DNA of 64,000 nucleotides from Patescibacteria group bacterium. GTDB lineage: Bacteria; Patescibacteriota; UBA1384; CAJBMM01. Below the pieces are notes generated by a model. That model did not search any database. It saw only the letters and a list, made by a program, of their open reading frames with translations, and was not told the DNA's origin. The translations under genes were made by a program, and so were the position numbers. The DNA lies in the NCBI GenBank assembly GCA_041660565.1, contig JBAZWC010000001.1:302481-366480 (forward strand), in the 5' to 3' direction. This document shows positions 6,461 through 50,920 of the stretch, in pieces. Every line of letters starts with the position of its first letter. Position 1 is the first letter of the stretch.

Positions 6461-7503
6461 ATTTTGATTGCTTTGATTATTTGACGTTTGAGTTCGGTAA
6501 GACCTAAGCCGGTGGCGCAAGAGATAAACATAGCGTTTGGCATCTCTTTGGCCAGTTTCTTTTGATCTTTTTCCGGAATTGCATCAATTTTGTTGATGGC
6601 CACAATGCGTGGCTTTTTAAGTAAAGTGGAGTTGAATTGCTTGGCCTCGTTTTCGAGAGTTTTTAGGTTTGCTTTAACGTCTGCGTCTGTACCATCTAGA
6701 ATAAATAATAATAATTTTGTGCGGTTGATGTGACGCAGAAATTCAACTCCAAGACCCTTGCCGCTGGCCGCGCCTTCAATAATTCCGGGGATATCGGCGA
6801 TAACCAGGTGATTTCCATCAATATCTGCCACCCCAAGATTTGGCTCTAGGGTGGTAAACGGATAGTTGGCAATTTTTGGCCGGGCGTTGGTGGTTACCGA
6901 TAAAAAGGTAGATTTTCCAGCGTTTGGCAAGCCAACCAGACCAACATCGGCAATTAGTTGCAGCTCTAGGTCTAGATTAAATTGCTGGCCCAACATACCG
7001 GTTTTAGCCCAGTGCGGAGCTTGTTTTATACTGGTAGCAAAGTGCGCGTTACCCCAACCGCCACGGCCGCCTTTAGCGATGATTTCGGTTTGACCTTCGG
7101 TTAGGATTTCGTATTTTTTAGGAGCGTCATTCACGTGCAGGCGGGATTCTATGTCTTTTATATCTGGATTCCGGATCAAGTCCGGAATGACAGGTCGTGA
7201 TGCTTCGTCAACAACTGAGATGATTGTGCCGAGGGGAACATGAATAATGCAGTCTTCGCCGTTTTTACCGTGCATCTTTTTACCCATTCCGCCTTGACCG
7301 TTCTGTGCCTCGTACATCTTTTTTGATCTAAAATCGCTTAGCGTGTGTAGATCTCGTTTGCCCACAATAACCACGTCTCCCCCATTACCCCCATCACCCC
7401 CATCCGGGCCTCCGTTGGGAATATATTTCTCACGCCGAAAAGAGACGGCTCCATCGCCGCCATTACCAGATTGAACGCTAATTTCACATTGATCGATAAA
7501 CAT
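6457..7503 (-). CDS. obg: GTPase Obg (ObgE/CgtA), no C-terminal extension
   Basis: Gly-rich Obg fold N-terminus, GLPNAGKST G1 and DIPG motifs. Confidence 0.9.
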   Translation of the reverse strand: MFIDQCEISVQSGNGGDGAVSFRREKYIPNGGPDGGDGGNGGDVVIVGKRDLHTLSDFRSKKMYEAQNGQGGMGKKMHGKNGEDCIIHVPLGTIISVVDEASRPVIPDLIRNPDIKDIESRLHVNDAPKKYEILTEGQTEIIAKGGRGGWGNAHFATSIKQAPHWAKTGMLGQQFNLDLELQLIADVGLVGLPNAGKSTFLSVTTNARPKIANYPFTTLEPNLGVADIDGNHLVIADIPGIIEGAASGKGLGVEFLRHINRTKLLLFILDGTDADVKANLKTLENEAKQFNSTLLKKPRIVAINKIDAIPEKDQKKLAKEMPNAMFISCATGLGLTELKRQIIKAIKI

Positions 7504-8656: not shown

Positions 8657-8725
8657 TGTCATCCCCGCCCCGCTAAGCGGGGCATTGGGACGCTAAGCGT
8701 CCCGACGTTCTATTCGGGGATCCAG
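8657..8725. repeat. double-hairpin palindromic element, family GTCATCCCCGCCCCGCTAAGCGGGGC..GGGACGCTAAGCGTCCC..ATTCGGGGATCCAG
   Basis: Copies at 21101-21231 (with insertion), 41763-41824 (reverse), fragment at 3096-3130. Confidence 0.7.
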
Positions 8726-8739
8726 AAATGAAGGTGGAA

Positions 8740-9345: not shown

Positions 9346-9418
9346 ACTGACAGGGGATAGAAAATTGATGATGGAGGATAGATTGATCTCGTTCGAGCGA
9401 ATGCGAGAACTATCCGCT

Positions 9419-9490
9419 GTCATTCCGGGCTCGACCCGGAATCTATGTAATTCTTTTATAGACTGGATTCCCGCCTTCGCGGGAATGACA
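9419..9490. repeat. hairpin repeat pair: GTCATTCCGGGCTCGACCCGGAATC + TTTATAGACTGGATTCCCGCCTTCGCGGGAATGACA
   Basis: Same units at 16210-16235, 37295-37372, 41704-41730, 62234-62268. Confidence 0.7.
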
Positions 9491-16142: not shown

Positions 16143-16209
16143 GTCCTTTTATGTGTTTACTAATTCATTTTACACTAGATTAGAGCCAAATTCAACTTAA
16201 ACATCTCTT

Positions 16210-16235
16210 GTCATTCCGGGCTCGACCCGGAATCT
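16210..16235. repeat. hairpin repeat GTCATTCCGGGCTCGACCCGGAATC
   Basis: Identical to 9419-9445. Confidence 0.7.
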
Positions 16236-16249
16236 ATATAAATGAATCA

Positions 16250-17098: not shown

Positions 17099-17119
17099 AA
17101 TCCGACCTCCAATAGGCGT

Positions 17120-17277
17120 TGTCATTTCGACCCTGCGAGCGTTGTCGAGCTGTTGGCTTCCTGCCCTCTTAGGGCGTAAGCCCGGAGGGAGAAATCTCAA
17201 AATGAATTTTGAAGAGATTCTTTCTCAGATTTCTCCACCGTGGTCGAGTTGCGACTCTCCCCGAGTCGAAATGACAG
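17120..17277. repeat. MITE-like element, family TGTCATTTCGAC...GGAGAAATCT..AGATTTCTCC...GTCGAAATGACAG (terminal inverted repeats ~13 bp), with a nested extra hairpin
   Basis: Full copies at 22372-22497 and 24029-24150; half copies at 36174-36236 and 40847-40908. Confidence 0.7.
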
Positions 17278-17285
17278 TTTTTACA

Positions 17286-19439
17286 CTATTTTAGCACCAT
17301 CGCCGTTTGCCAATTGGTTTTGGTGTAAAGTTCAAAGTTAGTCTGAATGTTTTGGAAAGTTAGACCATTAGCATTTACCAAATTCAGTTTTAATTTATCG
17401 CCAATGGTACCGGGCTGTTTTACATAGCTGAACTGCGCCGTATTTACTCCATTTTTATCTTTCACTATCGGCATTTCGTATTCAAATTTGGTTACAGTGG
17501 TGGCTTTGACCGCCGTGGTTACCCACAAGCCAAACGTCTGATAATTATCAAATTTCTGGGTGGTCGTGCCCTCGTTCGGCGCCACTCCTTCAACCCCGTT
17601 TGTTTCACTCTTAACAAGCGTAGCGTTATCCGGCACCACTAACCGCAAATAGTTGTGATTATCGGTATCGGGCCACACGCCATTGCCGGTGTGGGTTCGA
17701 GTGATTTCAACTGAGTGCAAAATAGTATTGTGGCTGGTTGGTTTAATGGTTACCGCCACGGTCTGATTAATATTAAGACTACTCTTTAACCCGCCTAAAT
17801 TGGCGTTATTTACCATCAGAAAATCATCATTTTTTGGCAGTGGATTTATGAGCGATAATTGAGCTTTTGTATCTTTATTAGTGATAAAAAGAGGATCAAA
17901 TAACAAATGTTTCTCCATTGCCGCATCGTAAAATACTTGGGCAATTTTACCCGGATCAGTAGACATTTGTTTAAACATGGATTGCAGCAAAATTGGCACC
18001 ATATCTGCTAATATCGATTTTGGCTCGTTGGCCTGTTTGTTGGCGCTATTTTGCCAGTAGTCTTTTTCCACCGCTTGCGTGGTTACCGCGTTAAAGTTGT
18101 CTTTGTTCACCGTAATGTTATCTTTTGGAATAGTAACCGAACCCACCACGTCTAGCATTGACGAAATTAAGCTAGTGTCTATGGCCAGCACGCCATCAAC
18201 ATTAATGCCGGTTTCTTGGTTGTAAAACCACGCCACTTGCTTGGCAGCGGTGTCAAAATCTACCGACCAGTTGGAATCACGCATCAACCAGTCTTTAGTC
18301 ATCAATCCAATTTGCGCCGGCGGATCGATGTGATACATTTTGGCATAAGTGTTATCTAATTTGTAAATGTTGGTTTCGACCGCAAAACTGTTGATATTGC
18401 CGTTTTTGATCGACATAGTGGCAAAAGAGCCCAAAAATCCGCCGCTCGGACGCAATTCGGAGTTGTTTTGAAATAGCACCAGATATTTTTTAGTATTATC
18501 TTTGCCCAACAGCAACGGCAGTTCGGTTAGTAAGTTATTTAATGATTTGGCTTGATGCAACAACGTTGGCAGCTGTTCTACCAACTGTAAACGCGTTTTT
18601 TCCAGTGTTGGTTCAGTGGATGGAGTTTTGGCATACAAATCTACCTGAGACTGAGCATCGGTTAGCAACTCGACAATTTTTTGCGATTGCTGAATATTGT
18701 TATTATTTGACTCCATTATGCCACTTAACACCACACTAACTTTAGACATTGGATTACTTTCGGTACTGGCATTAGTTTCATTATTGATCTTGGCCGCGTT
18801 ACTGATGTTTTCGGCTATCGTCATCAAAATTGACCCGGACCGTGTAATATCGGTCGCCGCAACCAGTAACCCCGAGGCAGTGTAAATTTGATCATGCTGA
18901 GCGAATAATGAGGTAATTTCTGAGCCCTGGCCGGCTTCAAATATCACCAATTTTGCTTGCTCAAATTGACTGGTGGCACGATCAAAATGCACTCCAGCTT
19001 CTTTGAATTGTTGCTGTTTTACCAACTCTTCGGCTAATTTTAGCTCGGCAATGCCAGATTTAGCTCTGTCTGAAATGTTGGCCTGAGCGCTGCCAACCAA
19101 AGCCGAAACCGGCAAAATGTTCATAAATAAGATAGATAGCGCAACCAAAAATGACGTAAATGCGTATATTTTACGAGTGGCAATTTGACGTTTTTTGCTT
19201 TTTAATCGAGTTGAATGCCTGGCGATGTTTTCCGGATAACCCCTGAATTTAACCAATGATGGTTGTTTTTCGTTGTACCACTCTAACCGATCTTGAGAAT
19301 GGTCTGGAGCAGCGTTTTTAACCGACAATACATCGTGACGTTGGCTAGCGGCAAAAACGCGATGCACCGGAATCTCCACGGGGGCAGCTACCACCGTGCG
19401 ACGTATCGGTTTAATATCACTTAGACGCTTCCCCTCCAT
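17286..19439 (-). CDS. DUF4012-like membrane-anchored protein (motif NNSELRPSGGFLGSFA)
   Basis: N-terminal TM, conserved ELRPSGGF(L/I)GS motif recalled for DUF4012; polysaccharide locus context. Confidence 0.45.
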   Translation of the reverse strand: MEGKRLSDIKPIRRTVVAAPVEIPVHRVFAASQRHDVLSVKNAAPDHSQDRLEWYNEKQPSLVKFRGYPENIARHSTRLKSKKRQIATRKIYAFTSFLVALSILFMNILPVSALVGSAQANISDRAKSGIAELKLAEELVKQQQFKEAGVHFDRATSQFEQAKLVIFEAGQGSEITSLFAQHDQIYTASGLLVAATDITRSGSILMTIAENISNAAKINNETNASTESNPMSKVSVVLSGIMESNNNNIQQSQKIVELLTDAQSQVDLYAKTPSTEPTLEKTRLQLVEQLPTLLHQAKSLNNLLTELPLLLGKDNTKKYLVLFQNNSELRPSGGFLGSFATMSIKNGNINSFAVETNIYKLDNTYAKMYHIDPPAQIGLMTKDWLMRDSNWSVDFDTAAKQVAWFYNQETGINVDGVLAIDTSLISSMLDVVGSVTIPKDNITVNKDNFNAVTTQAVEKDYWQNSANKQANEPKSILADMVPILLQSMFKQMSTDPGKIAQVFYDAAMEKHLLFDPLFITNKDTKAQLSLINPLPKNDDFLMVNNANLGGLKSSLNINQTVAVTIKPTSHNTILHSVEITRTHTGNGVWPDTDNHNYLRLVVPDNATLVKSETNGVEGVAPNEGTTTQKFDNYQTFGLWVTTAVKATTVTKFEYEMPIVKDKNGVNTAQFSYVKQPGTIGDKLKLNLVNANGLTFQNIQTNFELYTKTNWQTAMVLK

Positions 19440-19484
19440 TAGTGCCTATCCTTTTACCCAATTGGTCAAATTAGTTAAATGGGA

Positions 19485-20111
19485 TTAATTGGAATCTTTT
19501 TTAAGATAAGTACCCAGCATTGCCAGGAAGGTGGTTAAAACCAATCCAATCACAACCGCTAAGGTAATATCTAGTGCCCAAAACGGCTGCACTTTAACAC
19601 TCACCGGGCCGGAAGCACGTAAAACATACTTTTCGTCAGTTTTGGCGGCATTAGTCTCGTCGGTTAAGCCTTGCAAAACCGTGTTGGCAGAGTTGAGCAA
19701 CTTTTCGGATTGAACCGAATCGGTTGATCGCAGGGTGATGTCCACAGTGGCTGGCTGAAACTGTTTAACCGTAAATAATTTGCCTAATTGAGTTGATGAG
19801 CGTAAATCTGGCAAATCAACATCGGCGTTGGCATAAATACTCTTAACAACGCTTGGTGAAATCATCCAGTTACCAACAGTTTGTGCAAACAAACCACCAG
19901 CTTGCTGAGCGTAATATCCATCATACAGATAGTATGGGGTGGTTTTTTGATCAATGATTGAAACACGGTCAATGGTTAGAGTTAACGAGGTGTCGTATCT
20001 GGTTTTTCCGGTAGCAATGAATAGCGCGGTTATAAGCACCACAAGCAGTGTACCAAAGATGATTAATTTCTTGGCGCGACCAAATATTTTGATGTAATCT
20101 ATTAGTTCCAT
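19485..20111 (-). CDS. Wzz/YveK-like polysaccharide chain-length determinant-type membrane protein (N- and C-terminal TM); start trimmed to MELIDYIKIF
   Basis: Wzz N-terminal pattern, 2 TM; ORF-track N-terminal extension is encoded by the terminator element; RBS AAAGGAT before chosen ATG. Confidence 0.45.
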   Translation of the reverse strand: MELIDYIKIFGRAKKLIIFGTLLVVLITALFIATGKTRYDTSLTLTIDRVSIIDQKTTPYYLYDGYYAQQAGGLFAQTVGNWMISPSVVKSIYANADVDLPDLRSSTQLGKLFTVKQFQPATVDITLRSTDSVQSEKLLNSANTVLQGLTDETNAAKTDEKYVLRASGPVSVKVQPFWALDITLAVVIGLVLTTFLAMLGTYLKKDSN

Positions 20112-20172
20112 TTTTATCCTTTCGTAAGTTAAATACTCTATTTCATTTATACCATCATCGCGCCACAATAGC

Positions 20173-20209
20173 AAAAGGAAACCGCCCGGGTGGCGAACCA
20201 CCAAGGCGG
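20173..20209 (-). terminator. conserved cassette terminator ggaaaccgcccgggtggcgaaccaccaaggcgg + T-run (copy 1)
   Basis: Imperfect hairpin followed by tttcctttt on minus strand; identical copy at 20617-20655. Confidence 0.55.
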
Positions 20210-20221
20210 ACAGGCACCGGT

Positions 20222-20536
20222 CTAGTAGACCCGGGAGAACAACGGCTCGATAACTGCGACATACTCGCCAATAGGCAAAGCTCGAGGCATTACGGATCCC
20301 TTCAGCAACTGGGCAATGTTGTACACGATGCCCTCGATTTCCTCGCGGCCAAACTCCGACGCAACGTCTGAGGGTTCGACAACCAGAGTAAGTCGCACAT
20401 CTTTTCGACCAAATACCGGTTCTACCCTCTCGACGGCAAATGTCCGACAGGAAACATCCGCAATGTACCTCAATAACTCATCCGACGGAGTCCATTGATG
20501 CTCTCCGTCATCGTACCCAGACACTAATACTCGCAT
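20222..20536 (-). CDS. hypothetical protein, GC-rich cassette gene P1 (MRVLVSGYDDGE...)
   Basis: RBS GGGAGAC-ATG; conserved promoter box upstream and conserved terminator downstream. Confidence 0.4.
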   Translation of the reverse strand: MRVLVSGYDDGEHQWTPSDELLRYIADVSCRTFAVERVEPVFGRKDVRLTLVVEPSDVASEFGREEIEGIVYNIAQLLKGSVMPRALPIGEYVAVIEPLFSRVY

Positions 20537-20553
20537 CAATGTCTCCCATGAAC

Positions 20554-20595
20554 CATGATGGCATTAAGATACTATTTTAGAACATCTTTGTCCAG
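20554..20595 (-). promoter_or_regulatory. conserved 42-bp cassette promoter/5' box (catgatggcattaagatactattttagaacatctttgtccag; TGGACA-17-TATCTT on minus strand), copy 1
   Basis: Identical sequence at 21025-21066. Confidence 0.5.
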
Positions 20596-20616
20596 ATCAA
20601 GTCAGAATAACAATTA

Positions 20617-20655
20617 ATAAAGGAAACCGCCCGGGTGGCGAACCACCAAGGCGGA
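20617..20655 (-). terminator. conserved cassette terminator, copy 2
   Basis: Same hairpin as 20173-20209 followed by tttcctttatt. Confidence 0.55.
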
Positions 20656-20683
20656 GTGAACCAGGAAGAACGTTGCCGAAGTC

Positions 20684-21007
20684 CTAGGAGAATGTCGCTG
20701 AGAACATCTTTGCGGTGGTTGCCACATCGATGGTGGTATAGGGCGAGAATTGCTTGGTGTAGTCTTGCACCAGCTCTCCAACACGCTTGATCTGCAGATC
20801 GACGTTTTGAAGACTACCCAGCTCATCCCACATGTCCGGATTAATGATCCCGAACACATTTACGCTACCACCTGCTGGTGTCTCGCCGTAGCAGATACCG
20901 CCTATCACCACTGAATCGACCAGCGAACACGTGCGCAAAATGGTCTGCACAAGATCACCGACGCCGTCTTGGCGTTCGCTGGGAATTCCATCAATGACTA
21001 CGATCAT
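20684..21007 (-). CDS. hypothetical protein, GC-rich cassette gene P2 (MIVVIDGIPSERQ...), weakly similar N-terminus to P1
   Basis: RBS GGAGGG-5nt-ATG; same flanks as P1. Confidence 0.4.
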   Translation of the reverse strand: MIVVIDGIPSERQDGVGDLVQTILRTCSLVDSVVIGGICYGETPAGGSVNVFGIINPDMWDELGSLQNVDLQIKRVGELVQDYTKQFSPYTTIDVATTAKMFSATFS

Positions 21008-21024
21008 AGTAGCCCTCCGGCACA

Positions 21025-21066
21025 GCATGATGGCATTAAGATACTATTTTAGAACATCTTTGTCCA
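21025..21066 (-). promoter_or_regulatory. conserved cassette promoter/5' box, copy 2
   Basis: Identical to 20554-20595. Confidence 0.5.
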
Positions 21067-21100
21067 GTTTTGTTTATGTGAATTTAATAATTATTATATT

Positions 21101-21231
21101 TGTCATCCCCGCCCCGCTAAGCGGGGCAAAGGAACGCTTAGCGTCCCGACGTCCGTAATCCGTTTGCAGACGATGGCCTCCGGCTCTACGAGCCGATAGG
21201 CTCGGAGAGAGGACACTATTCGGGGATCCAG
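21101..21231. repeat. double-hairpin element (GTCATCCCCGCCCCGCTAAGCGGGGC...ATTCGGGGATCCAG) with a ~55-bp internal insertion that is itself a hairpin (cctccggctctacgagccgataggctcggagagagg)
   Basis: Compare 8657-8725. Confidence 0.65.
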
Positions 21232-21251
21232 TAAAAAATCCATTGTTACCC

Positions 21252-22346
21252 TTAGTTATGCGAGACCAAAGCTAAGATCTTTTCTTTGAATTTGTCTTCC
21301 GAGAACTGCATAGCGCGAAGATGGCAATCCTCTGGCTTAAACTTAGACGAATCAAACGTTTTTAGCTGATCTGCCAGGTTTTCCGCGTCGAGTGAGTCAA
21401 TTAGAATACCGGTGTGTGGCGTGACGATTTCTGCCGCTCCACCAGCGTTTCGGGCGATTACCGGACATCCGGCCGCCAGCGCTTCTACCATAGTAATGCC
21501 AAAATCCTCGGTTTGCGGGGCTAAAAACGCCTTAGCTTGGTACAACCAGTCGTCACGAACTTGATCTGAAACCCGTCCTAAGAATTTGACCGTTGGCCCG
21601 GCTAATTCCTGAAGTCGCTCGCTGTCGTTACCATCACCGATAATCACCAATTTAGTTTGACTCAAATTGGCTGCTTTTATTGCTAAATCAACGTCTTTAT
21701 GCGGTTCGAGGCGCGAAACGATCACAAAAGCGTCTTTAGTGTCACGTTTTTTGATATCAAATCGATCAACGTCTACCGGCGGATTTATTACGGTGCTCGG
21801 TTTATGATAAAACTTGGTAATGCGATCTTGGGTGGTTTTTGAGTTTGCAATAATCACATCTGGCCGCGATGAAGCAATCACATCCCATCGACGCAGGCGA
21901 TGCAGCATAAGCGGCACCAACCCTTTTAACGCGCCGGCAAATCGCCCGCGTTCAATATGGCTTTTGATATCAAACCATAAAAATCGGGTGGGGGTGTGCA
22001 TGTAGCAAATATGTTTCGTATTGGGCTGAGTAATTACGCCTTTGATGAAGCTAGATGAATCTGAAATTACCACGTCAAATTCAGATAGATCAAAACTTTC
22101 CACCGCTCGCGGCATTTCGGCGCGATAGTAGTTAATAAGTTTCTGAATTGCGGGGCGTTTTTGCAGATATGAGGTGCGAATATCCCAATCTTTATACACG
22201 CCGTGAGTACTTTTTTCGTCGTACAGTAATGTAAACACCGGCGCACTTGGAAAAAGCTGATGCAGACTGATCAACACCTTTTCCGCCCCACCATTCTTGA
22301 TGAGGTAGTCGTGAGCTAGAGCGATTTTAGGATTATTGGTGTTCAT
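21252..22346 (-). CDS. glycosyltransferase family 4 (GT-B, GT1-type)
   Basis: C-terminal EX7E-like region ...FGITMVEALAAGCPVIA... Confidence 0.8.
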   Translation of the reverse strand: MNTNNPKIALAHDYLIKNGGAEKVLISLHQLFPSAPVFTLLYDEKSTHGVYKDWDIRTSYLQKRPAIQKLINYYRAEMPRAVESFDLSEFDVVISDSSSFIKGVITQPNTKHICYMHTPTRFLWFDIKSHIERGRFAGALKGLVPLMLHRLRRWDVIASSRPDVIIANSKTTQDRITKFYHKPSTVINPPVDVDRFDIKKRDTKDAFVIVSRLEPHKDVDLAIKAANLSQTKLVIIGDGNDSERLQELAGPTVKFLGRVSDQVRDDWLYQAKAFLAPQTEDFGITMVEALAAGCPVIARNAGGAAEIVTPHTGILIDSLDAENLADQLKTFDSSKFKPEDCHLRAMQFSEDKFKEKILALVSHN

Positions 22347-22371
22347 TTAGTTTATATCCAATTGTATTACC

Positions 22372-22497
22372 TGTCATTTCGACCCCTCGAGCGTTGTCGA
22401 GAGGTTGGAGAAATCTCGAAAAAAAACTGGGAGGGATTCTTTCTTAAGATTTCTCCACCGTGGTCGTGTTGACACACTTCCCGAGTCGAAATGACAG
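22372..22497. repeat. MITE-like element (TGTCATTTCGAC ... GTCGAAATGACAG), full copy
   Basis: Terminal inverted repeats plus internal hairpin GGAGAAATCT/AGATTTCTCC. Confidence 0.75.
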
Positions 22498-22518
22498 ATA
22501 CTGACATTTACCTAGCAA

Positions 22519-23976
22519 TCAACACCCGCTTCTATCTTTAAATATGATCATCCATGGGGTTTTGATGATGATGGCAATATCCGCCCACAAGCTCCAATGC
22601 TCGATGTAATAAGTGTCTAAACGCACTTCTTCTTCAAAAGACAAATCGGAGCTACCGGAAATTTGCGCCATACCGGTCATCCCCGGTTTTATAGCTAGCA
22701 CTTTACGGTGATGTTTCTGGTAATTGGCAATTTCTTTTGCCAAGTGCGGACGCGGCCCAACTAGGCTCATTTTGCCAAACAGCACATTCACTAGCTGAGG
22801 AATTTCATCTATTCTACTGGCCCGTAAAAATCGACCGAGTGGTGTTACTCTAGGATCATGTTTCATCTTAAACAACGGACCATCGCCACGCTCATTAGAC
22901 TGTTGGCGTAGTTTATCCTCTAGTTTCTCGGCGTTTTTCACCATCGATCTAAATTTATACATCTTAAACGGTTTACCGCGTGAAATGCGATCATGCGAGA
23001 AAAATATTGGCCCCAAATCTTGAAGCTTAACCAAAATTGCCGTAACCAAAATTACCGGCGATAAAATGATTAACAACAGCAAAGAGCCTACAATGTCCAT
23101 TGCGCGCTTGAAAATCTTGCCCCAACCATCAAGAGGTGTGCGGCGCAGCGCTAACAGTGGTACCCCACCAATGTTTTCGGCTTGAACGTTACTAGATAGC
23201 ACCTCAAATAAGTTTGGAGCAAAAATAAAATCAAGCCTAAGCTCGTTGGTTCGGTCTATTACATCAATCATTAATTCATCATCCAAATCTGGATCGGCTT
23301 GAATGATGATATCGGGCTTAAGTTTAGCTATGGCATCATCAATATCTGCCAGCGTGCCAACGCATTTCATTTCAATATGATGATCGGTGTTGCTGACGGT
23401 TTTAAGTACGCCAATCACTTTTAAACCGCGGCTTTTTTCACGCGATGTAGTGTCGATAATTGTCTTTGCCACTTTGGTATTGCCAATTAGCAAAACTCGT
23501 TTTTGCCCAATCCCTTCTTCTAAAAGCAAATTGAGTAAGAAACGATAAACCAGCCGAACGCCAAATGTAACGATGATTGAGGCGATCCAAAAATAAACAA
23601 TGGTCAAAAGAGAGATGTTATTTGACCAAGTGAACCAGTTTTCGTAGCGGTTTTCGATAAAAGGCGTACGTCCAAACAGCACCACCATCAGCATAATCAT
23701 AATGGTGGTAGAGGTAGCTGAAACTACTCGAATTAGTTGTTGGCCGCTCTTACGAGTTTCAGAAAGGATATACAAACGGTGAAAGGCGTAAAAAAAGATC
23801 AGTATCGGCAGATACCAAATTAGAAAATGATAATTATTTATTTGCACCCGAGTTTGATCAAGCGGCAAAATGTCTAAAGTAGTACGCAGATTTTTGGCTA
23901 CCAAGATGCTTAAAAAAACAGCCACAAAATCGAGCACAGGCAAGAGAGCGGTAAACCATAATTCAAGTTTTTTCAT
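22519..23976 (-). CDS. polyprenyl-phosphate sugar phosphotransferase (bacterial sugar transferase, WbaP/EpsL-like) with N-terminal TM domain
   Basis: C-terminal bacterial sugar transferase signature KMSLVGPRPH; multiple TM helices. Confidence 0.8.
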   Translation of the reverse strand: MKKLELWFTALLPVLDFVAVFLSILVAKNLRTTLDILPLDQTRVQINNYHFLIWYLPILIFFYAFHRLYILSETRKSGQQLIRVVSATSTTIMIMLMVVLFGRTPFIENRYENWFTWSNNISLLTIVYFWIASIIVTFGVRLVYRFLLNLLLEEGIGQKRVLLIGNTKVAKTIIDTTSREKSRGLKVIGVLKTVSNTDHHIEMKCVGTLADIDDAIAKLKPDIIIQADPDLDDELMIDVIDRTNELRLDFIFAPNLFEVLSSNVQAENIGGVPLLALRRTPLDGWGKIFKRAMDIVGSLLLLIILSPVILVTAILVKLQDLGPIFFSHDRISRGKPFKMYKFRSMVKNAEKLEDKLRQQSNERGDGPLFKMKHDPRVTPLGRFLRASRIDEIPQLVNVLFGKMSLVGPRPHLAKEIANYQKHHRKVLAIKPGMTGMAQISGSSDLSFEEEVRLDTYYIEHWSLWADIAIIIKTPWMIIFKDRSGC

Positions 23977-24028
23977 ATAAAGATATATTACCACTTTTAG
24001 CGCTAGAGATAAAGGATGCTCACGTTAT

Positions 24029-24150
24029 GTCATTTCGACCCTAGGAGATTGTCAAATCGACTATGTCGGAGAAATCTGAGAAAGAATCCCTTCAATTTTT
24101 TAAGGAGATTTCTCCAACCGTTCGTGGAAGCTCACGGGGTCGAAATGACA
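24029..24150. repeat. MITE-like element, full copy, in promoter region of sugar transferase gene
   Basis: Same family as 22372-22497. Confidence 0.75.
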
Positions 24151-24220
24151 AAGTAGAAGTAACACCCAGAAAATCCACGGACGAGCCGTGGATTTTCTAT
24201 TTAATAATTAGATTTAATTA

Positions 24221-28793: not shown

Positions 28794-29111
28794 TTACCAA
28801 ATCCCCAGCAGATCTTTGACCTCTTGACTGGCCATTATTGAAGGATCCCAAATTGGGTCAAAAACCACCACTACTTCCACGTTAGAATAGTTATTTTTGT
28901 TTAGTTGATCTTTCACTTCTTGAATTAGGCTAGATGCGTACGGGCAAAACGGCGTGGTAAGGGTCATGGTGATTTTAACGTGGCGATCTGTCACTTCGGC
29001 ACCATAAATTAGTCCCAAATCTACAATGTTGATGTTTAGTTCGGGATCAACAACTTTTGAAAGCATCGTATTAATTTTAGGATCTATTTTCATCCTCGTC
29101 ATCCCTGCCAA
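28794..29111 (-). CDS. sufT: SufT/DUF59 (MIP18-like) Fe-S assembly protein
   Basis: DUF59 pattern ...VDLGLIY...TTPFCP; suf operon context. Confidence 0.65.
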   Translation of the reverse strand: MAGMTRMKIDPKINTMLSKVVDPELNINIVDLGLIYGAEVTDRHVKITMTLTTPFCPYASSLIQEVKDQLNKNNYSNVEVVVVFDPIWDPSIMASQEVKDLLGIW

Positions 29112-29525
29112 TCAAGCCAATTTATCCAATTTTGATATACAATCTGACAACCCCTGCCAAGGCAACCAAGCGCACCCATGGCGATTTGGGAACTGAGCTA
29201 CGCCACTTAAACTAATCAAACTGTCTGGCGGATTAGACCCCTTTAAGACTTGGTCGACATCAGAAATTAGCTTTTGAGTTTCGTTTCGACTTTTGCCATT
29301 AACCTCACGACACATTAGCGATGCCGAAGCTTGGCAAATTAGACATCCGTCAACTTGGCATGACACCTTTAATTTACCCAAAGCGACCTTAGCCTGAAGC
29401 TTAATTTTATCACCGCAGCTAAGGTGCGACCGCTCAATTTCAACATCCGGATTTTTTATTCGATCCGCGCCGGTTGGAAACTGGGCTAAATCTAGTAATT
29501 CTTGTTGATAGATATCATTTGACAT
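29112..29525 (-). CDS. sufU: SufU/IscU-like Fe-S scaffold/sulfur acceptor; C-terminus KLDKLA* encoded by ATTGGA repeat
   Basis: Three Cys motifs SCGDKI, GCLICQAS, HGCAWL. Confidence 0.75.
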   Translation of the reverse strand: MSNDIYQQELLDLAQFPTGADRIKNPDVEIERSHLSCGDKIKLQAKVALGKLKVSCQVDGCLICQASASLMCREVNGKSRNETQKLISDVDQVLKGSNPPDSLISLSGVAQFPNRHGCAWLPWQGLSDCISKLDKLA

Positions 29526-31474: not shown

Positions 31475-32846
31475 CTGAGCCCTCCATTTCCAAATCGATT
31501 AACCGGTTTAACTCAATGGCGTATTCAAACGGCAATTCTTTGGTAAACTGGCTAATAAATCCGTTGACGATCAGAGACGCGGCCGCACTTTCTGACAATC
31601 CTCGACTAGTTAGATAGAAAAGTTGAGCGTCACCAATCTTGCTCACCGACGCTTCGTGCTCCACAAACGCCGTTGGTTCGGCAACCTTGATGGTGGGGTA
31701 CGTATCTGATCGTGATCGATCGTCTAACAGCAATGCATCGCATCGAACTCGGTTCTTAACTCCGCTATACCCCCTACCAACGTTTACCGTCCCGCGAAAG
31801 CTGGTCCGGCCGCCATCTTTTGAAATCGATTTGGAAATTATTGTTGATGAGGTGTTGTTTGCCAAATGGATTGCCTTGGCGCCGGCATCTTGGTACTGAT
31901 CTTTGCCTGCATACGCAATGGACAAAATATCACCTTTTGCCCCGTTACCTAACAAATACACGCTCGGATATTTCATCGTTAACCGCGAGCCCAAATTGCC
32001 ATCCACCCACTCTACAAACGCATTTTCATACACAAATGCCCGTTTTGTCACCAAGTTGTAGATGTTTTTGGACCAATTCTGCACTGTGGTATAGCGAATA
32101 TGTGAACCGGGCAACGCGATTAGTTCCACCACCGCGGCGTGAAGCGAATACGTGGAATATACCGGCGCGGTGCACCCTTCTATATAATGAACATCACTTC
32201 CTTCATCTGCGATGATTAACGTGCGCTCAAACTGGCCAAAGCTTTCCGCGTTAATGCGAAAATATGCCTGCAACGGCAAGCGCACTTTGGTATTTTTAGG
32301 CACGTAGATAAAACTGCCTCCCGACCACACCGCCGAATTTAGGGCGGAAAATTTGTTGTCATTTGCCGGAACAACAGACGCAAAATATTTTTTGACGATT
32401 TCGGGATATTCTCTTAAACCCGTGTCCATATCGCAAAAGATCACTCCCTGGTCATCTAACTCTTTTTTGATGTGATGATAAACCACTTCGGATTCAAATT
32501 GCGCCGATACGCCGGCCAGAAATTGGCGTTCCGCTTGCGGAATACCAATTTTATCAAATGTTTGCTTGATATCGTCTGGAACATCGTCCCAACTGTTTTG
32601 CGGCTTGTCAGATGTGGACAAATAATAGGTGATTTGGTCAAAATTAATCTCGTCAATTAGTTTACTTTGTGCCCAAATTGGGAGTTTTTTGGCTAAAAAT
32701 TGAGTGTAAGATTTAAGCCGAAAATCTAGCATCCATTTTGGCTCATTTTTGCGACGCGAAATAGCCTTAACCGTTTCGGCGGTAAGTCCTTTTGGTGTTT
32801 GGTATTTAACTGCGCTTTTCATGGTTCCCTTGTCATTCCGGGTCAA
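31467..32846 (-). CDS. sufB: Fe-S cluster assembly protein SufB
   Basis: Strong SufB signature throughout (…[20 protein letters not shown]…). Confidence 0.9.
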
Positions 32847-32887
32847 TTGGCTTAATTGGATTGATTGGACTAATTGGAAAATTTAAA

Positions 32888-33616
32888 TTATTTATTAATT
32901 TCACTAAACCCAGTGCTATTTACCTTCTGCGATAAATCCGCACCACCGATTCTGACAATCGCTCCGTCTTGCATTACCAACACCCGATCAACTTTGACTA
33001 AATCTAGCAAGCGTTGGTAGTGGGTAATTATAATAATTGCTCGATCAGGTGCACGGTATTGGTTAATAACGTCGGCAACCAGATGAAGTGCATCTACGTC
33101 TAACCCGGAGTCAATTTCGTCTAAGATCAATAATTTTGGCTGCAATACCAATGCTTGCGCCAATTCCAACCGCTTTTTCTCGCCTCCAGACATCCCGTCG
33201 TTTACCGCACGATTAGCGTAGCTTTGATCTAAACCAACCGAGTTAAGCGCCGAAATTAAATTTGACCGAAAACTGGCGGCAGTTACTTTAAGATGAGGAT
33301 GATTTTTAACCGCGGCCCGCAGCATTGAAGCCACGGTTAGCCCCGGAATTTCTATGGGATGTTGCGATGCCACATATATCCCCAGTGCAGATCGTTTGTC
33401 TGCACTTAATTTGGTGAGGTCTTTATGATTAAAAATAATTCGCCCAGCAGAACAGTCGTAATTTGGCGAGCCCATAATGGAAGATACCAGCGTGCTTTTG
33501 CCTGAACCGTTTGGCCCCATTATCGCCACCACTTCGCCTGCTTCAATTTCAAGCGACAGATTCTCAATAATTTTTTTATCACTGGCGTTTACAGATAAAT
33601 TATTTATTTTTAGCAT
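32888..33616 (-). CDS. sufC: Fe-S cluster assembly ATPase SufC
   Basis: Walker A GPNGSGKST, ABC signature, Walker B LLILDE. Confidence 0.9.
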   Translation of the reverse strand: MLKINNLSVNASDKKIIENLSLEIEAGEVVAIMGPNGSGKSTLVSSIMGSPNYDCSAGRIIFNHKDLTKLSADKRSALGIYVASQHPIEIPGLTVASMLRAAVKNHPHLKVTAASFRSNLISALNSVGLDQSYANRAVNDGMSGGEKKRLELAQALVLQPKLLILDEIDSGLDVDALHLVADVINQYRAPDRAIIIITHYQRLLDLVKVDRVLVMQDGAIVRIGGADLSQKVNSTGFSEINK

Positions 33617-33640
33617 TATTCAACTTTCCAATTCATCCAA

Positions 33641-34018
33641 TCAATCCAATTTATCCAATTTGATTGAATGTAATTTTTCAATAATTTCCGCGTTTATTTT
33701 TCTCACTTGAGGAGATGTCTGACACCCTTTATTTTGACAACTGGCGCAATCGGTCAACGCAATCGGCCCATCAACGGCGGTGATTATTTGGGCAAAACTG
33801 ATGGTTTTTGGATCAACTGCCACCCAATATCCCCCTCCCACACCTTCTTTACTCGAAATCAATCCAGCCTGACGCAATTTGTTAGCTAATTGTCGCAATA
33901 TTGATAACGGCAAGTTCGCTTCCCCTGCCACCACATTTAAGCTAATTGGATGGCTAGAATTTGATAATTTAGACATCAGCACCAGCGCATAATCTTGTTT
34001 TTTGGAGAGTTTCAACAT
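33641..34018 (-). CDS. Rrf2 family transcriptional regulator (IscR/SufR-like); C-terminus KLDKLD* encoded by ATTGGA repeat
   Basis: Rrf2 wHTH N-terminus MLKLSKKQDYALVLM..., C-terminal Cys triad. Confidence 0.75.
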   Translation of the reverse strand: MLKLSKKQDYALVLMSKLSNSSHPISLNVVAGEANLPLSILRQLANKLRQAGLISSKEGVGGGYWVAVDPKTISFAQIITAVDGPIALTDCASCQNKGCQTSPQVRKINAEIIEKLHSIKLDKLD

Positions 34019-34194
34019 ATCTAATACCTATTTGTATCTAGTTTTACAGATGTAATAGACGCTTGTCAAATTGGTCTGATTGGATTAATTGGAGCAATTG
34101 GATTGATTGGATTTGAATTTGTTTCGTATTTCGAATTTTGTGCTTAGTGCTTTGTTGACTTGCGCCAACTCGATCCTTAATTCATACTGATATT

Positions 34195-36173: not shown

Positions 36174-36236
36174 TGTCATTTCGACTCGGGGAGAGTGTCA
36201 ACTCGACCACAGTGGAGAAACCTCAAGAAAGAATCC
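36174..36236. repeat. half copy of MITE-like element (TGTCATTTCGAC...GGAGAAAC..AGAATCC)
   Basis: Aligns to left half of 22372-22497. Confidence 0.6.
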
Positions 36237-36878
36237 ATTCCAGTGAAACACATAAATAATAGCTATTTTGTGGTAATTACTTTATTTGTTCTCGCCGTTG
36301 CGGCCGTAATTGCCATAGTCCTAACGTCAGATCATCAGCAGTCTGCCGAAGCCACTATTTGGCGAGTTGATGCCCCGACAAAAGGCAAAACAAGCGCCAA
36401 AGTTAAGATGGTGGAATTTGGCGATTTTGCTTGCGTCGCCTGCGCCGATTTCAGGGCGATAAAAAACGCCCTGCTAGAACAATATCCAAACGACCTACAA
36501 TATCAATTTCGCTTTTTCCCCACCGCTAATCATCCCAATTCGTACTCGGCGGCGGTAACCGCCGAAATTGCCAACCAGCACGACCAATTTTGGGTAATGT
36601 CTGACCTCTTATACGAAAACCATGCAAACTGGCAAGATTCAACCAACTTTCGCAGCATTTTTGCCAACTTTGCAGTGTTAGTGGGAATTGATCAGAGTAC
36701 ATTTACCAGTGATTTTGACAAACTAAAAACAGCTGACGATGTGGTAGATAAAGACGTGGCAGACGGCAATGCACTGTCGATTACCGAAACGCCGGCTATT
36801 TTTCTAAATGACACCCGTTACGGCGGCACCTTAACTCAGACCGATTTGGCCAAAGCAATAGATTCTCTATTAAAATAG
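36195..36878 (+). CDS. DsbA-like thiol:disulfide oxidoreductase, membrane-anchored (CVAC active site); annotated N-terminus lies in the repeat, true start probably GTG near 36223
   Basis: Thioredoxin-fold CxxC FGDFACVACADF after a TM helix. Confidence 0.65.
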   Translation: MSTRPQWRNLKKESIPVKHINNSYFVVITLFVLAVAAVIAIVLTSDHQQSAEATIWRVDAPTKGKTSAKVKMVEFGDFACVACADFRAIKNALLEQYPNDLQYQFRFFPTANHPNSYSAAVTAEIANQHDQFWVMSDLLYENHANWQDSTNFRSIFANFAVLVGIDQSTFTSDFDKLKTADDVVDKDVADGNALSITETPAIFLNDTRYGGTLTQTDLAKAIDSLLK

Positions 36879-36909
36879 TCTTTTTCTAACTCCAATTGGA
36901 TAAATTGGA

Positions 36910-37284
36910 CTAATTGGAATGATTGGATTCTTTTATTGTGACCGATGGTTCGGAACTATAAACCGGCGCCACCGGGCTTGAAAAATGTCCATGATTTACG
37001 TTAGCTGATGTTGAAACCGGAATATCCAGTGCAAACGCCAGCGAATTTGCCGTAGCCACACCTATTCGGGTACCGGTGAAAGACCCGGGGCCGGGATTAA
37101 CCACAATTGCATTTAGATTAGACAGTACAATTTTATTTTGTTTTAACAATTGATCAATTTTTGGCAACAGCTCCGACCCTAAATTACGCCCGGATTCCCA
37201 CGCAATTTGGTCAACTACTTGCTTGTCGATTATGATTTCGAGTTTAGTTGTTTCAGTTGTAGTGTCTATTGATAATATTTTCAT
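36910..37284 (-). CDS. tsaB: TsaB (YeaZ)-like protein, N-terminal domain only (124 aa)
   Basis: SIDTTTE...NPGPGSFTGTRIGVA motif. Confidence 0.6.
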   Translation of the reverse strand: MKILSIDTTTETTKLEIIIDKQVVDQIAWESGRNLGSELLPKIDQLLKQNKIVLSNLNAIVVNPGPGSFTGTRIGVATANSLAFALDIPVSTSANVNHGHFSSPVAPVYSSEPSVTIKESNHSN

Positions 37285-37294: not shown

Positions 37295-37372
37295 TGTCAT
37301 CCCGGGCTCGACCCGGGATCCAGACTATAAAAGACTTTATTATATAGATTCCGTGTCAAGCACGGAATGACA
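37295..37372. repeat. hairpin pair TGTCATCCCGGGCTCGACCCGGGATCCAGACTATAAAAG + ATTCCGTGTCAAGCACGGAATGACA; second hairpin encodes the last 9 codons and stop of tsaE
   Basis: Family of 9419-9490; tsaE ends ...CHSVLDTESI* inside hairpin. Confidence 0.65.
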
Positions 37373-39540: not shown

Positions 39541-39610
39541 AAATTTTAAAGGCAAAATTTTAAATGAATAAGTACCGAATGATTAAATTTTATAAAAGTT
39601 CCTTATTTAG
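39541..39610. repeat. ~65-bp repeat, inverted copy of 54776-54838 (ctaaataaggaac..aaatttaatcattcggtact.attcatt..)
   Basis: Near-identical in reverse complement. Confidence 0.6.
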
Positions 39611-40685: not shown

Positions 40686-41395
40686 CTCAAATACACTACC
40701 TGACCTTCTATTAGTTCAATTGGATCTGACGTTGCATTATTTTTCTTGGATACCTGACGCTCAACTCTTTCCGGAATATATTTTATCGGTTTTTGGCTGA
40801 TTTGGTCAAACCACGACTGATCCGTTTCGTCTCTGCCTTTAACCATTGTCATTTCGACCCGTGGAGCTGGCTCGAGCGACCGCGTTGGAGAAATCTGAGA
40901 AAGAATCCTTACAGGTCTTTCTGCGGGTTCGTTCCATTCTCGATTGAGACTGACACTGGAATCAAAGCGCATTAACGGAAAGGTAATCACATTCCCAGCC
41001 ATCATCAAATGCATCACACCAAGATTTACACGTTGATGTAGTTTGGAAGGATACCTAATTGTCATCTTTTCGATCTGTAATTTATCAACCGCAAATCGAA
41101 CTATCTGCCATTTTCTGACTAAATTAATCTCAAATTTGTCCTGATCAAAAATTAGCAATGAATTTAGCCAACGCCAATAATATTGCATAAGATTATAGAG
41201 GTCGAGACACACGAAAGCTAGCGCGATCACAAAAATTATCCCGGCCAAATTCGGGTTTGAAACCAACAGATTGTTCACAACTAGTAATATCAATACAATC
41301 GATGCAATTTTTATAATTGATCTTAGCACGGCCGTTACCAATCCAAGCCAATGTGGATGTAAAGTAATTGTGTTTGAACTAATATTTTTATTCAT
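40682..41395 (-). CDS. hypothetical membrane protein containing an in-frame half-MITE (encodes ...RSLEPAPRVEMTMVKGRDET...)
   Basis: 2 TM N-terminus; repeat at 40847-40908 lies inside ORF. Confidence 0.4.
   Translation of the reverse strand: MNKNISSNTITLHPHWLGLVTAVLRSIIKIASIVLILLVVNNLLVSNPNLAGIIFVIALAFVCLDLYNLMQYYWRWLNSLLIFDQDKFEINLVRKWQIVRFAVDKLQIEKMTIRYPSKLHQRVNLGVMHLMMAGNVITFPLMRFDSSVSLNREWNEPAERPVRILSQISPTRSLEPAPRVEMTMVKGRDETDQSWFDQISQKPIKYIPERVERQVSKKNNATSDPIELIEGQVVYLR
40847..40908. repeat. half copy of MITE-like element inside coding sequence
   Basis: TGTCATTTCGACCC...GGAGAAATCTGAGAAAGAATCC. Confidence 0.6.
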
Positions 41396-41651: not shown

Positions 41652-41703
41652 ACATTATTTATATGTTACCATATTTTTATTTTTTTAGCAATCTATTTTT
41701 CTC

Positions 41704-41824
41704 GTCATTCCCGCGAAGGCGGGAATCCAGCCTATAATAAAATTCATATTTTTCTGGATCCCCGAATATAATGTCGGGACGCTTAGCGCCCCTAAGTCCC
41801 GCTTAGCGGGACGGGGATGACAAA
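41704..41824. repeat. composite repeat: GTCATTCCCGCGAAGGCGGGAATCCAGCCTATAAT + reverse copy of double-hairpin element
   Basis: Matches 9475-9490 and revcomp of 8657-8725. Confidence 0.65.
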
Positions 41825-50919: not shown

Positions 50920-50920
50920 G

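What the first reader, a model, noticed from the sequence alone, without database searches (positions are those of the whole stretch)
17103..24150. MITE-like family with 13-bp terminal inverted repeats (TGTCATTTCGAC...GTCGAAATGACAG)
Full copies of ~125 bp occur at 22372-22497 and 24029-24150, with terminal inverted repeats and an internal hairpin GGAGAAATCT..AGATTTCTCC. A 158-bp copy with a nested extra hairpin is at 17120-17277. Half copies are at 36174-36236 and in frame inside a CDS at 40847-40908. The copies sit in promoter regions (sugar transferase, GT4), so they may carry regulatory signals. ORF-track peptides containing RVEMT come from translating this element.
Basis: seen in the sequence. 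Interest (0 to 1): 0.6.

Follow-up and report, generated by a model that had tools for sequence, protein, structure and literature searches.

The report
Hairpin repeats partnered with Ssn nucleases
The "mini-transposon" copies are real, but they are pairs of a small DNA hairpin repeat that in many other bacteria brackets the gene of a small single-strand-DNA nuclease (Ssn, described in 2025), so this is a new member of a recently described kind.

Summary
The window, from a Patescibacteria (CPR) MAG, contains exactly eight units of one repeat: three 123-158 bp inverted doublets and two singlets.

The "13-bp TIR" is the conserved 5' part of a hairpin unit: TGTC|ATTTC-GA-[variable stem-loop]-GA-GAAAT|CT. 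This has the 5' GTCAT and 3' ATC signature of the NTS/SRM repeats bound and cut as ssDNA by the GIY-YIG nuclease SsnA (Chenal et al. 2025).

- The same termini occur in many phyla.
- In 80 metagenome loci encoding SsnA-like genes, most genes are bracketed by TGTCATTTCGA...GAGAAATCT units facing outward.
- Spacing between facing units is bimodal: 0-80 nt (empty doublets, as here) or 200-450 nt (the nuclease gene).
- These nucleases are 42% identical to the N. gonorrhoeae SsnA orthologue.
- The basal stem covaries across about 900 units.

There is no target-site duplication, no transposase and no Rfam match. The window also holds about 11 units of other SRM subfamilies, three of which match the Neisseria NTS consensus apart from the first base in two.

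Not shown: an ssn gene in this genome (none in the window), cleavage, mobility, or any regulatory role. The family does not fit the published SRM search pattern.

The parts
17120..17277 (.). Doublet copy 1 (158 bp). Type-A unit 17120-17197 on the + strand, with an extra 33 nt (about 17157-17189) in its variable loop. Type-B unit 17276->17215 on the - strand. Lies 9 nt downstream of the stop of the DUF4012 gene (17286-19439, -).
   Evidence: Logan contig L122 breaks at 17220
22372..22497 (.). Doublet copy 2 (126 bp). Type-A unit 22372-22416 (+), 30-nt spacer, type-B unit 22496->22434 (-). Lies between the sugar-transferase stop (22519) and the GT4 start (22346), both on the - strand.
   Evidence: folds as ssDNA at -26 to -29 kcal/mol, z -4.4 to -5.5
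24028..24150 (.). Doublet copy 3 (123 bp), flipped relative to copies 1 and 2. Type-B unit 24028-24090 (+), type-A unit 24150->24106 (-). Lies upstream of the sugar-transferase gene.
   Evidence: (I4, I8); Logan contig L121 breaks at 24055
36174..36236 (+). Type-B singlet. The right arm is mutated (GAAAC instead of GAAAT). Intergenic, just upstream of the thioredoxin-like ORF 36195-36878.
   Evidence: (D7, I2)
40847..40908 (+). Type-B singlet lying inside the annotated orphan ORF 40682-41395 (- strand, WC773_01705). Read on the - strand it gives the in-frame peptide ...SQISPTRSLEPAPRVEMTM...
9418..9490 (.). Context: doublet of other SRM subfamilies. TGTCATTCCGGGCTCGACCCGGAATC (+, from 9418), and TGTCATTCCCGCGAAGGCGGGAATCCAG (-, 9490->9463). 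The latter fits the published SRM pattern and equals the Neisseria NTS consensus except for its first base.
41703..41822 (.). Context: doublet made of an exact NTS-consensus unit CGTCATTCCCGCGAAGGCGGGAATCCAG (41703-41730, +) and a long ATCCCCG-type unit (41822->41754, -). Related long units lie at 8657-8728 (+) and 21099-21150 (partial).
   Evidence: (I1, I6)
37295..37372 (.). Context: doublet TGTCATCCCGGGCTCGACCCGGGATCCAG (+) with TGTCATTCCGTGCTTGACACGGAATC (-). Further single short units lie at 7165-7192 (-), 16209-16236 (+) and 62240-62267 (-).

Best explanation
The copies are doublets and singlets of a hairpin-forming DNA repeat unit: 5'-TGTC|ATTTC-GA-[variable stem-loop]-GA-GAAAT|CT-3'. 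The unit belongs to the superfamily of Ssn-related motifs (NTS/SRM), the ssDNA hairpins recognised by the small single-domain GIY-YIG nucleases of the Ssn family.

Shown:
- The unit has the oriented 5' GTCAT flank, a base-paired stem that covaries, and a C directly after the stem.
- Identical termini tightly bracket SsnA-like genes in many phyla, with the GTCAT ends facing outward.
- The window's roughly 125-bp elements have that same arrangement with a 30-nt spacer in place of the gene.

Inferred:
- When the DNA is single-stranded (replication, or DNA uptake or transfer), each unit folds, is bound by a cognate Ssn encoded elsewhere in the genome, and is nicked a few nucleotides 5' of GTCAT.
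- A doublet carries one cleavable unit on each strand, so either strand is a substrate.
- The consequence would be modulation of recombination with incoming ssDNA, as in Neisseria, and/or spread of the repeats by the nuclease, as REPINs are thought to be spread by RAYTs.
- Any effect on neighbouring gene expression would be secondary.
For: 1. Anatomy. All 8 units start with TGTCATTTCGAC. Seven end in GGAGAAATCT; the singlet at 36174 has GGAGAAACCT.
2. Stem covariation. Across about 900 units from 200 loci the basal stem covaries: TTTC with GAAA 454/478, TTCC with GGAA 58/72, TCTC with GAGA 46/52, TCCC with GGGA 11/15, CTTC with GAAG 9/12.
3. Distribution. The pattern TTTCTCC-N20-36-GTCGAAATGACA hit more than 120 genome stretches in Clostridia, Bacteroidota, Planctomycetota, Chloroflexota, Acidobacteriota, Nitrospira, Patescibacteria and others. 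Of 144 matches, 122 are preceded by GA, against about 9 expected by chance.
4. Association from the repeat side. The only small protein family recurring in those loci is a GIY-YIG protein (3 loci). Two of the three genes have the units on both sides and the third (L110) on its upstream side only; in L100 the order is unit-ORF-unit.
5. Association from the gene side. Of 80 metagenome loci encoding relatives of that protein, about 60 have a unit on the gene strand within 250 nt upstream of the start codon, in the tightest cassettes ending 4-5 nt before it. About 65 have one on the opposite strand at or within about 300 nt after the stop. Most are TGTCATTTCGA...GAGAAATCT.
6. Spacing between facing units is bimodal: 0-80 nt or 200-450 nt.
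7. The nuclease is an Ssn. It is 42% identical over 88 residues (pairwise E 3e-26; tblastn E 1e-9) to a 94-aa N. gonorrhoeae protein. That protein has Y6, Y17 and E64, the residues mutated in the SsnA paper, and sits among 16 NTS copies in 3.2 kb (PMC11893778).
8. The window also holds 4 matches to the published SRM pattern against 0.4 expected. One equals the NTS consensus outright and two differ only at the first base.
9. SsnA biochemistry (PMC11893778): only ssDNA is bound and cut, only one strand is a substrate, the cut lies upstream of the motif, the C after the palindrome is critical, and loop extensions are tolerated.
Against: - No GIY-YIG gene lies in the 64-kb window (phmmer and an 80-sequence HMM). 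I could not scan the rest of the MAG, so a cognate nuclease in this genome is unproven.
- The units do not fit the published degenerate SRM pattern, because of the GA/GA bulges and long loops.
- Single units fold no better than shuffles with nearest-neighbour DNA parameters (z about 0). Those parameters give no credit to tandem G.A pairs.
- In a doublet the inter-unit pairing (12-bp outer stem plus 11-bp central stem) is thermodynamically favoured over the two separate hairpins.
- No cleavage, mobility or phenotype data exist for this subfamily.
Confidence: 0.75

Rival explanations
1. A classical MITE: a deletion derivative of an insertion sequence, moved in trans by a DDE-type transposase that recognises the 12-13 bp terminal inverted repeats.
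For: The elements are short, multi-copy and intergenic, with perfect 12-bp inverted ends starting TG...CA. A short-read assembly breaks at two of the three doublets, copies 1 and 3.
Against: There is no target-site duplication at any of the three doublets. Units occur singly, with only one 'TIR'. The same ends recur nearly unchanged across phyla, which is not expected of lineage-specific IS ends. Unbiased clustering of ORFs in 120 loci found no transposase. Facing units 1-2.5 kb apart enclose ordinary genes. The gene that does sit between identical ends is a GIY-YIG nuclease.
Confidence: 0.07
2. A structured RNA element, such as an mRNA stabiliser, attenuator, processing site or small RNA, that acts after transcription within the polysaccharide-gene operon.
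For: The whole doublet folds strongly (z -4.4 to -5.5). All three doublets are intergenic in a minus-strand gene row. The stems covary. REP/BIME elements are known to have such side effects (general knowledge).
Against: There is no Rfam match, even at E <= 1. Copy 3 is inverted relative to copies 1 and 2 while the flanking genes keep their orientation. No T-run follows the outer stem. In ssn cassettes the two units lie on opposite strands, so an mRNA would carry one sense and one antisense copy. The conserved GA...GA and GTCAT features are strand-specific yet present on both strands of a doublet. SsnA does not act on RNA (PMC11893778).
Confidence: 0.1
3. REP/REPIN-type elements serviced by a RAYT (an IS200/IS605-like Y1 HUH transposase), or PATEs derived from IS200/IS605.
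For: The architecture is the same: a short palindromic unit with a conserved oriented 5' flank, inverted doublets that form a long hairpin, and a small flanked gene in some genomes.
Against: No recurring Y1 transposase-like ORF appears in 200 loci; the only recurring small ORF is GIY-YIG. IS200/IS605 ends carry their hairpins on the same strand, whereas here they are on opposite strands. The conserved flank is GTCAT rather than the GTAG-type tetranucleotide of REPs (general knowledge).
Confidence: 0.05

Closest known systems
NTS / Ssn-related motifs (SRM) with SsnA GIY-YIG ssDNA nucleases (Chenal et al., Nat Commun 2025, PMC11893778)
   Same: Both are oriented hairpin repeats with 5' GTCAT overlapping the stem and a C right after it. 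Both are present in many copies, mostly intergenic, and flank a roughly 95-110-aa single-domain GIY-YIG gene on both sides. The nuclease clade found here is 42% identical to the gonococcal SsnA orthologue and has the same catalytic positions. NTS-consensus copies co-occur in this window.
   Different: The stem is only 5 bp, followed by tandem GA/GA mismatches and a long variable stem-loop. The published SRM pattern therefore does not match. The units are organised as A+B heterodoublets ('empty cassettes') and carry 5' half-site duplications, neither of which is mentioned in the paper's main text. The host is a Patescibacteria MAG. The cognate gene was not seen in the window and no biochemistry exists.
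REP / REPIN elements with RAYT transposases (Nunvar 2010; Bertels and Rainey 2011; general knowledge)
   Same: Both have palindromic units with an oriented conserved flank, inverted doublets that fold into one long hairpin, singlets alongside doublets, and a single-copy enzyme gene flanked by the units.
   Different: The partner enzyme is a GIY-YIG nuclease, not a Y1 HUH transposase, and the sequence signature differs.
Bacterial MITEs such as the Neisseria Correia element (general knowledge)
   Same: Both are 100-160 bp with inverted ends, intergenic and multi-copy, with occasional outward promoter-like hexamers at the ends.
   Different: There is no target-site duplication and no transposase-encoding parent. 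Each end is a self-contained hairpin unit that also occurs alone.
Rickettsia palindromic elements (RPE; general knowledge)
   Same: Both are palindromic repeats that can lie in frame inside ORFs, as the 40847 unit may.
   Different: The ORF here is an orphan, so insertion into a functional protein is unproven, and there is no sequence relationship.

Membership tests
Ssn-related motif (SRM/NTS) repeats | Hairpin-forming imperfect palindrome of 20-50 nt | tested here: met
   Units are 45-50 nt. The ATTTC/GAAAT basal stem shows compensatory variants across about 900 units. Inner stems differ between copies but stay paired, e.g. CTCGA/TCGAG versus CGTG/CACG.
Ssn-related motif (SRM/NTS) repeats | Conserved oriented 5' flank (H)GTC(W)(Y) overlapping the start of the stem | tested here: met
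   TGTCAT is present in 8 of 8 units.
Ssn-related motif (SRM/NTS) repeats | C immediately 3' of the palindrome (critical for SsnA binding in N. meningitidis) | tested here: met
   GAAAT|C is present in 7 of 8 units. The unit at 36174 has GAAAC|C.
Ssn-related motif (SRM/NTS) repeats | Match to the published search pattern HGTCWYN(0-2)YYVSBRHN(0-5)WNVSBRGN(0-2)RNCYNB | tested here: not met
   None of the 8 focal units matches, nor do minimal GA-type units from ssn flanks. Four other sites in the window match, against 0.4 expected. The pattern is a search heuristic rather than a biochemical definition.
Ssn-related motif (SRM/NTS) repeats | Units flank an ssn (cd10448-type, single-domain GIY-YIG) gene | tested here: inconclusive
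   Met in other genomes: of 3 genome loci, two carry units on both sides and one upstream only, and about 60-65 of 80 metagenome loci carry the same TGTCATTTCGA...GAGAAATCT units. The protein is 42% identical to the gonococcal SsnA orthologue. Not met in the window. The rest of this MAG could not be searched.
Ssn-related motif (SRM/NTS) repeats | Bound and cut by the cognate Ssn as ssDNA only, and on one strand only | not testable with these tools
   Needs purified protein and oligonucleotides.
Classical MITE | Terminal inverted repeats | tested here: met
   12-bp perfect inverted ends on all three doublets.
Classical MITE | Target-site duplication flanking each copy | tested here: not met
   The flanks are GGCGT/GTTTT, TTACC/GATAC and CGTTA/AAGTA, with no shared direct repeat.
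Classical MITE | Parent IS with the same ends encoding a transposase | tested here: not met
   No transposase appears in 200 loci. The gene between identical ends is a GIY-YIG nuclease.
REP/REPIN-RAYT | Associated Y1 (HUH) RAYT gene flanked by the units | tested here: not met
   Unbiased ORF clustering found no such recurring family. No explicit Y1 profile was run, so the test is weak.
IS200/IS605-derived PATE | Both end hairpins on the same strand | tested here: not met
   The units of doublets and of ssn cassettes are on opposite strands.
Any Rfam RNA family | Covariance-model match | tested here: not met
   Nothing on the elements at the gathering threshold or at E <= 1.

The most novel reading that the evidence does not exclude
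The unit-ssn-unit cassette is an autonomous mobile element of a new mechanistic class: a GIY-YIG ssDNA nickase acting on end hairpins that lie on opposite strands. The 125-bp doublets in this CPR genome would be its non-autonomous derivatives. On this reading the 20-22-nt 5' half-site duplications are footprints of the copying mechanism. The high density of about 19 units of at least 4 subfamilies in 64 kb of a small Patescibacteria genome would reflect active proliferation rather than a host function.
Probability: 0.25. Interest if true: 0.75.

Novelty: new member of a known kind. Interest (0 to 1): 0.45.

Why it matters
It replaces a generic "MITE" label with a specific, testable partner: an Ssn-type ssDNA nuclease.

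- The 2025 SRM search pattern misses a large GA-bulged class of these repeats.
- It documents "empty cassette" doublets and half-site duplications. These bear on the open question of whether Ssn elements are selfish mobile DNA or domesticated recombination controllers.
- For CPR bacteria, which depend on DNA uptake and have tiny genomes, a dense set of ssDNA-nuclease targets could matter for genome stability.
- For biotechnology, each new unit/nuclease pair is a candidate site-specific ssDNA cutter.

Tried and rejected
- **Cyanobacterial origin.** This was my first guess, from the short periodic repeats. I rejected it: HIP1 count is 0 and the proteins are annotated as from a Patescibacteria group bacterium.
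- **Hammerhead-like or other ribozyme reading of GUC...CGAAA.** The register and the CUGANGA core do not fit, and Rfam gives nothing.
- **Tn7-like end with repeated 22-bp transposase sites.** I dropped this once the internal repeat proved to be a half-site duplication common next to ssn genes.
- **Plasmid BLAST of the element.** No match.
- **Supplementary data of the Ssn paper.** Not held.
- **Recovering the source contig.** Only short Logan contigs were returned.
- **Homologues of the orphan ORF 40682-41395.** None found, so the in-frame insertion claim could not be tested against orthologues.
- **The 33-nt nested insert.** No other copy in the window.
- **Promoter and terminator scans.** Nothing above shuffles at the elements.
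- **ssn relatives in viral contigs.** Only 2 loci, so the cassette is not typically phage-borne.
- **Later literature on Ssn/SRM.** No follow-up papers found.


Full report
**1. Observation**

The 12-mer TGTCATTTCGAC occurs exactly 8 times in 64 kb. The five loci align as one family (A1). Profile searches with nhmmer find 8 units and no further diverged copy.

Each roughly 125-bp 'full copy' consists of two different units in inverted orientation, with their TGTCAT ends facing outward:
- Type A is about 45 nt: TGTCATTTCGACCC-[stem-loop]-GGTTGGAGAAATCTC.
- Type B is about 50 nt plus a tail: TGTCATTTCGAC-N10-TGTCAAnTCGAC-N5-GGAGAAATCT-GAGAAAGAATCC.

Copy 3 is flipped relative to copies 1 and 2 (I4, I8). 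The two 'half copies' are complete type-B singlets. The extra 33 nt of copy 1 lies in the variable loop of its A unit and is unique in the window.

An independent Logan assembly of run SRR18595301 is 100% identical to the window. It breaks at 17220 and 24055, inside copies 1 and 3. That is the behaviour of a multi-copy repeat.

**2. Host and context**

Exact look-ups name the proteins 'MAG... [Patescibacteria group bacterium]', on a contig of 516,109 bp. The window is therefore from a CPR bacterium, not a cyanobacterium as I first guessed (HIP1 count 0).

The doublets are intergenic in a minus-strand row of genes: gyrB, DUF4012, sugar transferase, GT4 and class-V aminotransferase. The 40847 unit lies in the annotated orphan ORF WC773_01705. 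That ORF has no homologue among 5.8 billion proteins, so 'in-frame insertion into a CDS' remains unverifiable.

**3. The family is not local**

The hosts include Clostridia, Bacteroidota, Planctomycetota, Chloroflexota, Acidobacteriota, Nitrospira, Ignavibacteria, Hydrogenedentota, Spirochaetes and Patescibacteria, often with several copies per locus.

I estimate about 74 chance matches for the whole collection. However, 122 of 144 matches are preceded by GA, against about 9 expected, and most show the full architecture.

The minimal unit elsewhere is TGTC|ATTTC-GA-NN-loop-NN-GA-GAAAT|CT. Variants ATTCC/GGAAT, ATCTC/GAGAT, ATCCC/GGGAT and ACTTC/GAAGT pair with their own complement, not with the majority arm. 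This is compensatory variation that demonstrates a base-paired stem.

The GA...GA mismatches are conserved only on the GTCAT strand. The unit is therefore oriented.

**4. Link to a known system**

A full-text search for related end sequences found Chenal et al. 2025 (PMC11893778). That paper reports:
- The Neisseria repeat NTS is CGTCATTCCCGCGMAVGCGGGAATCYRG.
- NTS and its relatives (SRM) flank ssnA, a 94-aa single-domain GIY-YIG protein.
- SsnA binds the hairpin only as ssDNA, on one strand only, and cuts a few nucleotides upstream.
- The three bases before the palindrome govern cutting.
- The C after the palindrome is most important for binding.
- Loop extensions are tolerated.

The focal unit shares the 5' GTCAT, the hairpin and the 3' ATC.

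**5. Test of the link, from the repeat side**

In the 120 genome loci, the only small protein family that recurs across loci is a GIY-YIG protein (L017, L100, L110). Two of the three genes have the units on both sides, and L110 has one on its upstream side only. In L100 the order is TGTCATTTCGAGCGAAGCGAGAAATCT, then ORF, then AGATTTCTCC...GGTCGAAATGACA.

**6. Test of the link, from the gene side**

- In about 60 of the 80, a unit lies on the gene strand within 250 nt upstream of the start codon.
- In about 65, a unit lies on the opposite strand within about 300 nt after the stop.
- The large majority are exactly TGTCATTTCGA...GAGAAATCT.

In the tightest cassettes the left unit ends 4-5 nt before ATG, with GGGAG about 9 nt upstream. 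The right unit starts at the stop codon.

The distance between facing units is bimodal: 0-80 nt or 200-450 nt. The window's doublets, with 20-40-nt spacers, are thus the 'empty' form of the cassette.

**7. Is the protein an Ssn?**

A tblastn search of PLSDB happened to hit two N. gonorrhoeae chromosomes filed as plasmids. The hit encodes a 94-aa protein, MQPAVYILASQRNGTLYIGVTSDL..., with Y6, Y17 and E64. These are the positions mutated in the SsnA paper. The gene is embedded in 16 NTS copies within 3.2 kb, so it is the SsnA orthologue.

It is 42% identical to the L100 protein over 88 ungapped residues (pairwise E 3e-26). The clade contains at least 8000 clusters at 90% identity, all PF01541.

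A Planktothrix plasmid homologue is likewise flanked by GA-type units (ATTCT-GA-...-GA-AGAAT) with 23-nt half-site duplications.

**8. Other SRM subfamilies in the window**

A scan for GTCAT followed by a stem and then C finds 30 sites, against 12.5 in shuffles. About 19 are convincing units of at least 4 subfamilies. The published SRM pattern matches 4 sites against 0.4 expected. One of them is identical to the Neisseria NTS consensus and two differ from it only at the first base.

None of the focal units fits that pattern, nor do the minimal GA-type units from ssn flanks. The pattern has no room for the GA bulges or the long loops.

**9. What is not shown**

- No GIY-YIG gene lies in the window, and I could not search the rest of the MAG.
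- Single units fold no better than shuffles with standard DNA parameters.
- The whole doublet folds strongly by pairing unit with unit (-26 to -29 kcal/mol, z -4.4 to -5.5).
- Nothing here demonstrates cleavage, mobility or a phenotype.

**10. Rivals**

- Classical MITE: there is no target-site duplication, no transposase in 200 loci, and facing units 1-2.5 kb apart enclose ordinary genes.
- RNA element: there is no Rfam hit, orientation is inconsistent with transcription, and no terminator tail is present.
- REP/RAYT or IS200/IS605: the architecture is alike, but the partner gene is GIY-YIG and the end hairpins are on opposite strands.
- Regulatory role: only marginal ATGACA -35-like matches occur at the element ends, no more frequent than in shuffles.

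**11. Verdict**

This is a real repeat family, correctly spotted and structurally MITE-like. It is best understood as doublets of an Ssn-related hairpin motif. It is a new, GA-bulged member of a kind described in 2025, found here in a CPR genome at high density.

The 'empty cassette' doublets and the half-site duplications (period mode 20-22 nt) are absent from the main text of the paper. They keep open the more interesting reading that ssn cassettes are mobile elements with non-autonomous derivatives.

Noticed in passing
window 42713-42792, 49652-49761, 50917-51027, 51605-51726, 52838-52943, 56347-56464, 57000-57121: Intergenic arrays with a 9-nt period, (TTAGGGnnn)x3-5, followed after a short loop by the complementary (nnnCCCTAA/CCCAAT) array. 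Each forms a large imperfect hairpin between genes. They are unrelated to the focal family and their function is unknown.
   Followed up: no
window 19465-19493, 29108-29132, 32841-32893, 33619-33663, 34065-34117, 36890-36942, 54834-54876: A second 9-nt-period family (AATTGGAnn / its complement CCAATnnn), again intergenic and in inverted pairs (D4, D11, D17, I10, I16). At 32832 it abuts a truncated TGTCATTCCGGG unit.
   Followed up: no
window 7165-7192, 9418-9490, 16209-16236, 37295-37372, 41703-41822, 62240-62267, 8657-8728, 21099-21150: About 11 further GTCAT-hairpin-ATC units of at least three other subfamilies. One is identical to the Neisseria NTS consensus and two differ only at the first base. 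Several are arranged as inverted doublets with 20-40-nt spacers.
   Followed up: partly
loci L115, L124, L146, L157, L163, L204 and many others; window type-B units: The left half-site (TGTCAT NNN GA NN, 13 nt) plus 5-10 nt of spacer is often tandemly duplicated 1-3 times 5' of a complete unit, with a period mode of 20-22 nt. About 15% of the units in the ssn-containing loci show it. The window's type-B unit carries a degenerate copy. This could be a footprint of the nuclease or copying mechanism. It is not mentioned in the main text of PMC11893778.
   Followed up: partly
loci L136, L151, L175, L192 (metagenome): ssn cassettes are extremely compact. The right arm of the upstream hairpin (GGGAG) sits about 9 nt before ATG like a Shine-Dalgarno sequence. 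The downstream unit starts at the stop codon. The hairpin could therefore occlude the nuclease's own ribosome-binding site.
   Followed up: no
L204 (Planktothrix agardhii plasmid NZ_LR882964.1, 18847-19131): An Ssn homologue with flanking GA-type units sits between an MmeI-type restriction-modification gene and DISARM drmA, that is, in a defence-island context.
   Followed up: no
PLSDB records NZ_CP119140.1 and NZ_CP119142.1: Two 2.17-Mb Neisseria gonorrhoeae chromosomes are filed as 'plasmids'. This was useful here because they carry the ssnA orthologue and its NTS cluster.
   Followed up: yes
window 24167-24199: A 14-bp perfect hairpin (TAGAAAATCCACGG...CCGTGGATTTTCTG), terminator-like on both strands, lies directly beside doublet copy 3.
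   Followed up: no
window 39555-39664 and 54722-54832: An AT-rich segment of about 110 nt is present twice in inverted orientation, 15 kb apart (I12, I19, I20). It is another unexplained repeat.
   Followed up: no
Viral-contig loci L205-L286: ssn relatives are almost absent from IMG/VR: 2 loci, against more than 543 in metagenome contigs. The unit pattern still occurs in 105 viral stretches, a few with 4-7 copies.
   Followed up: no
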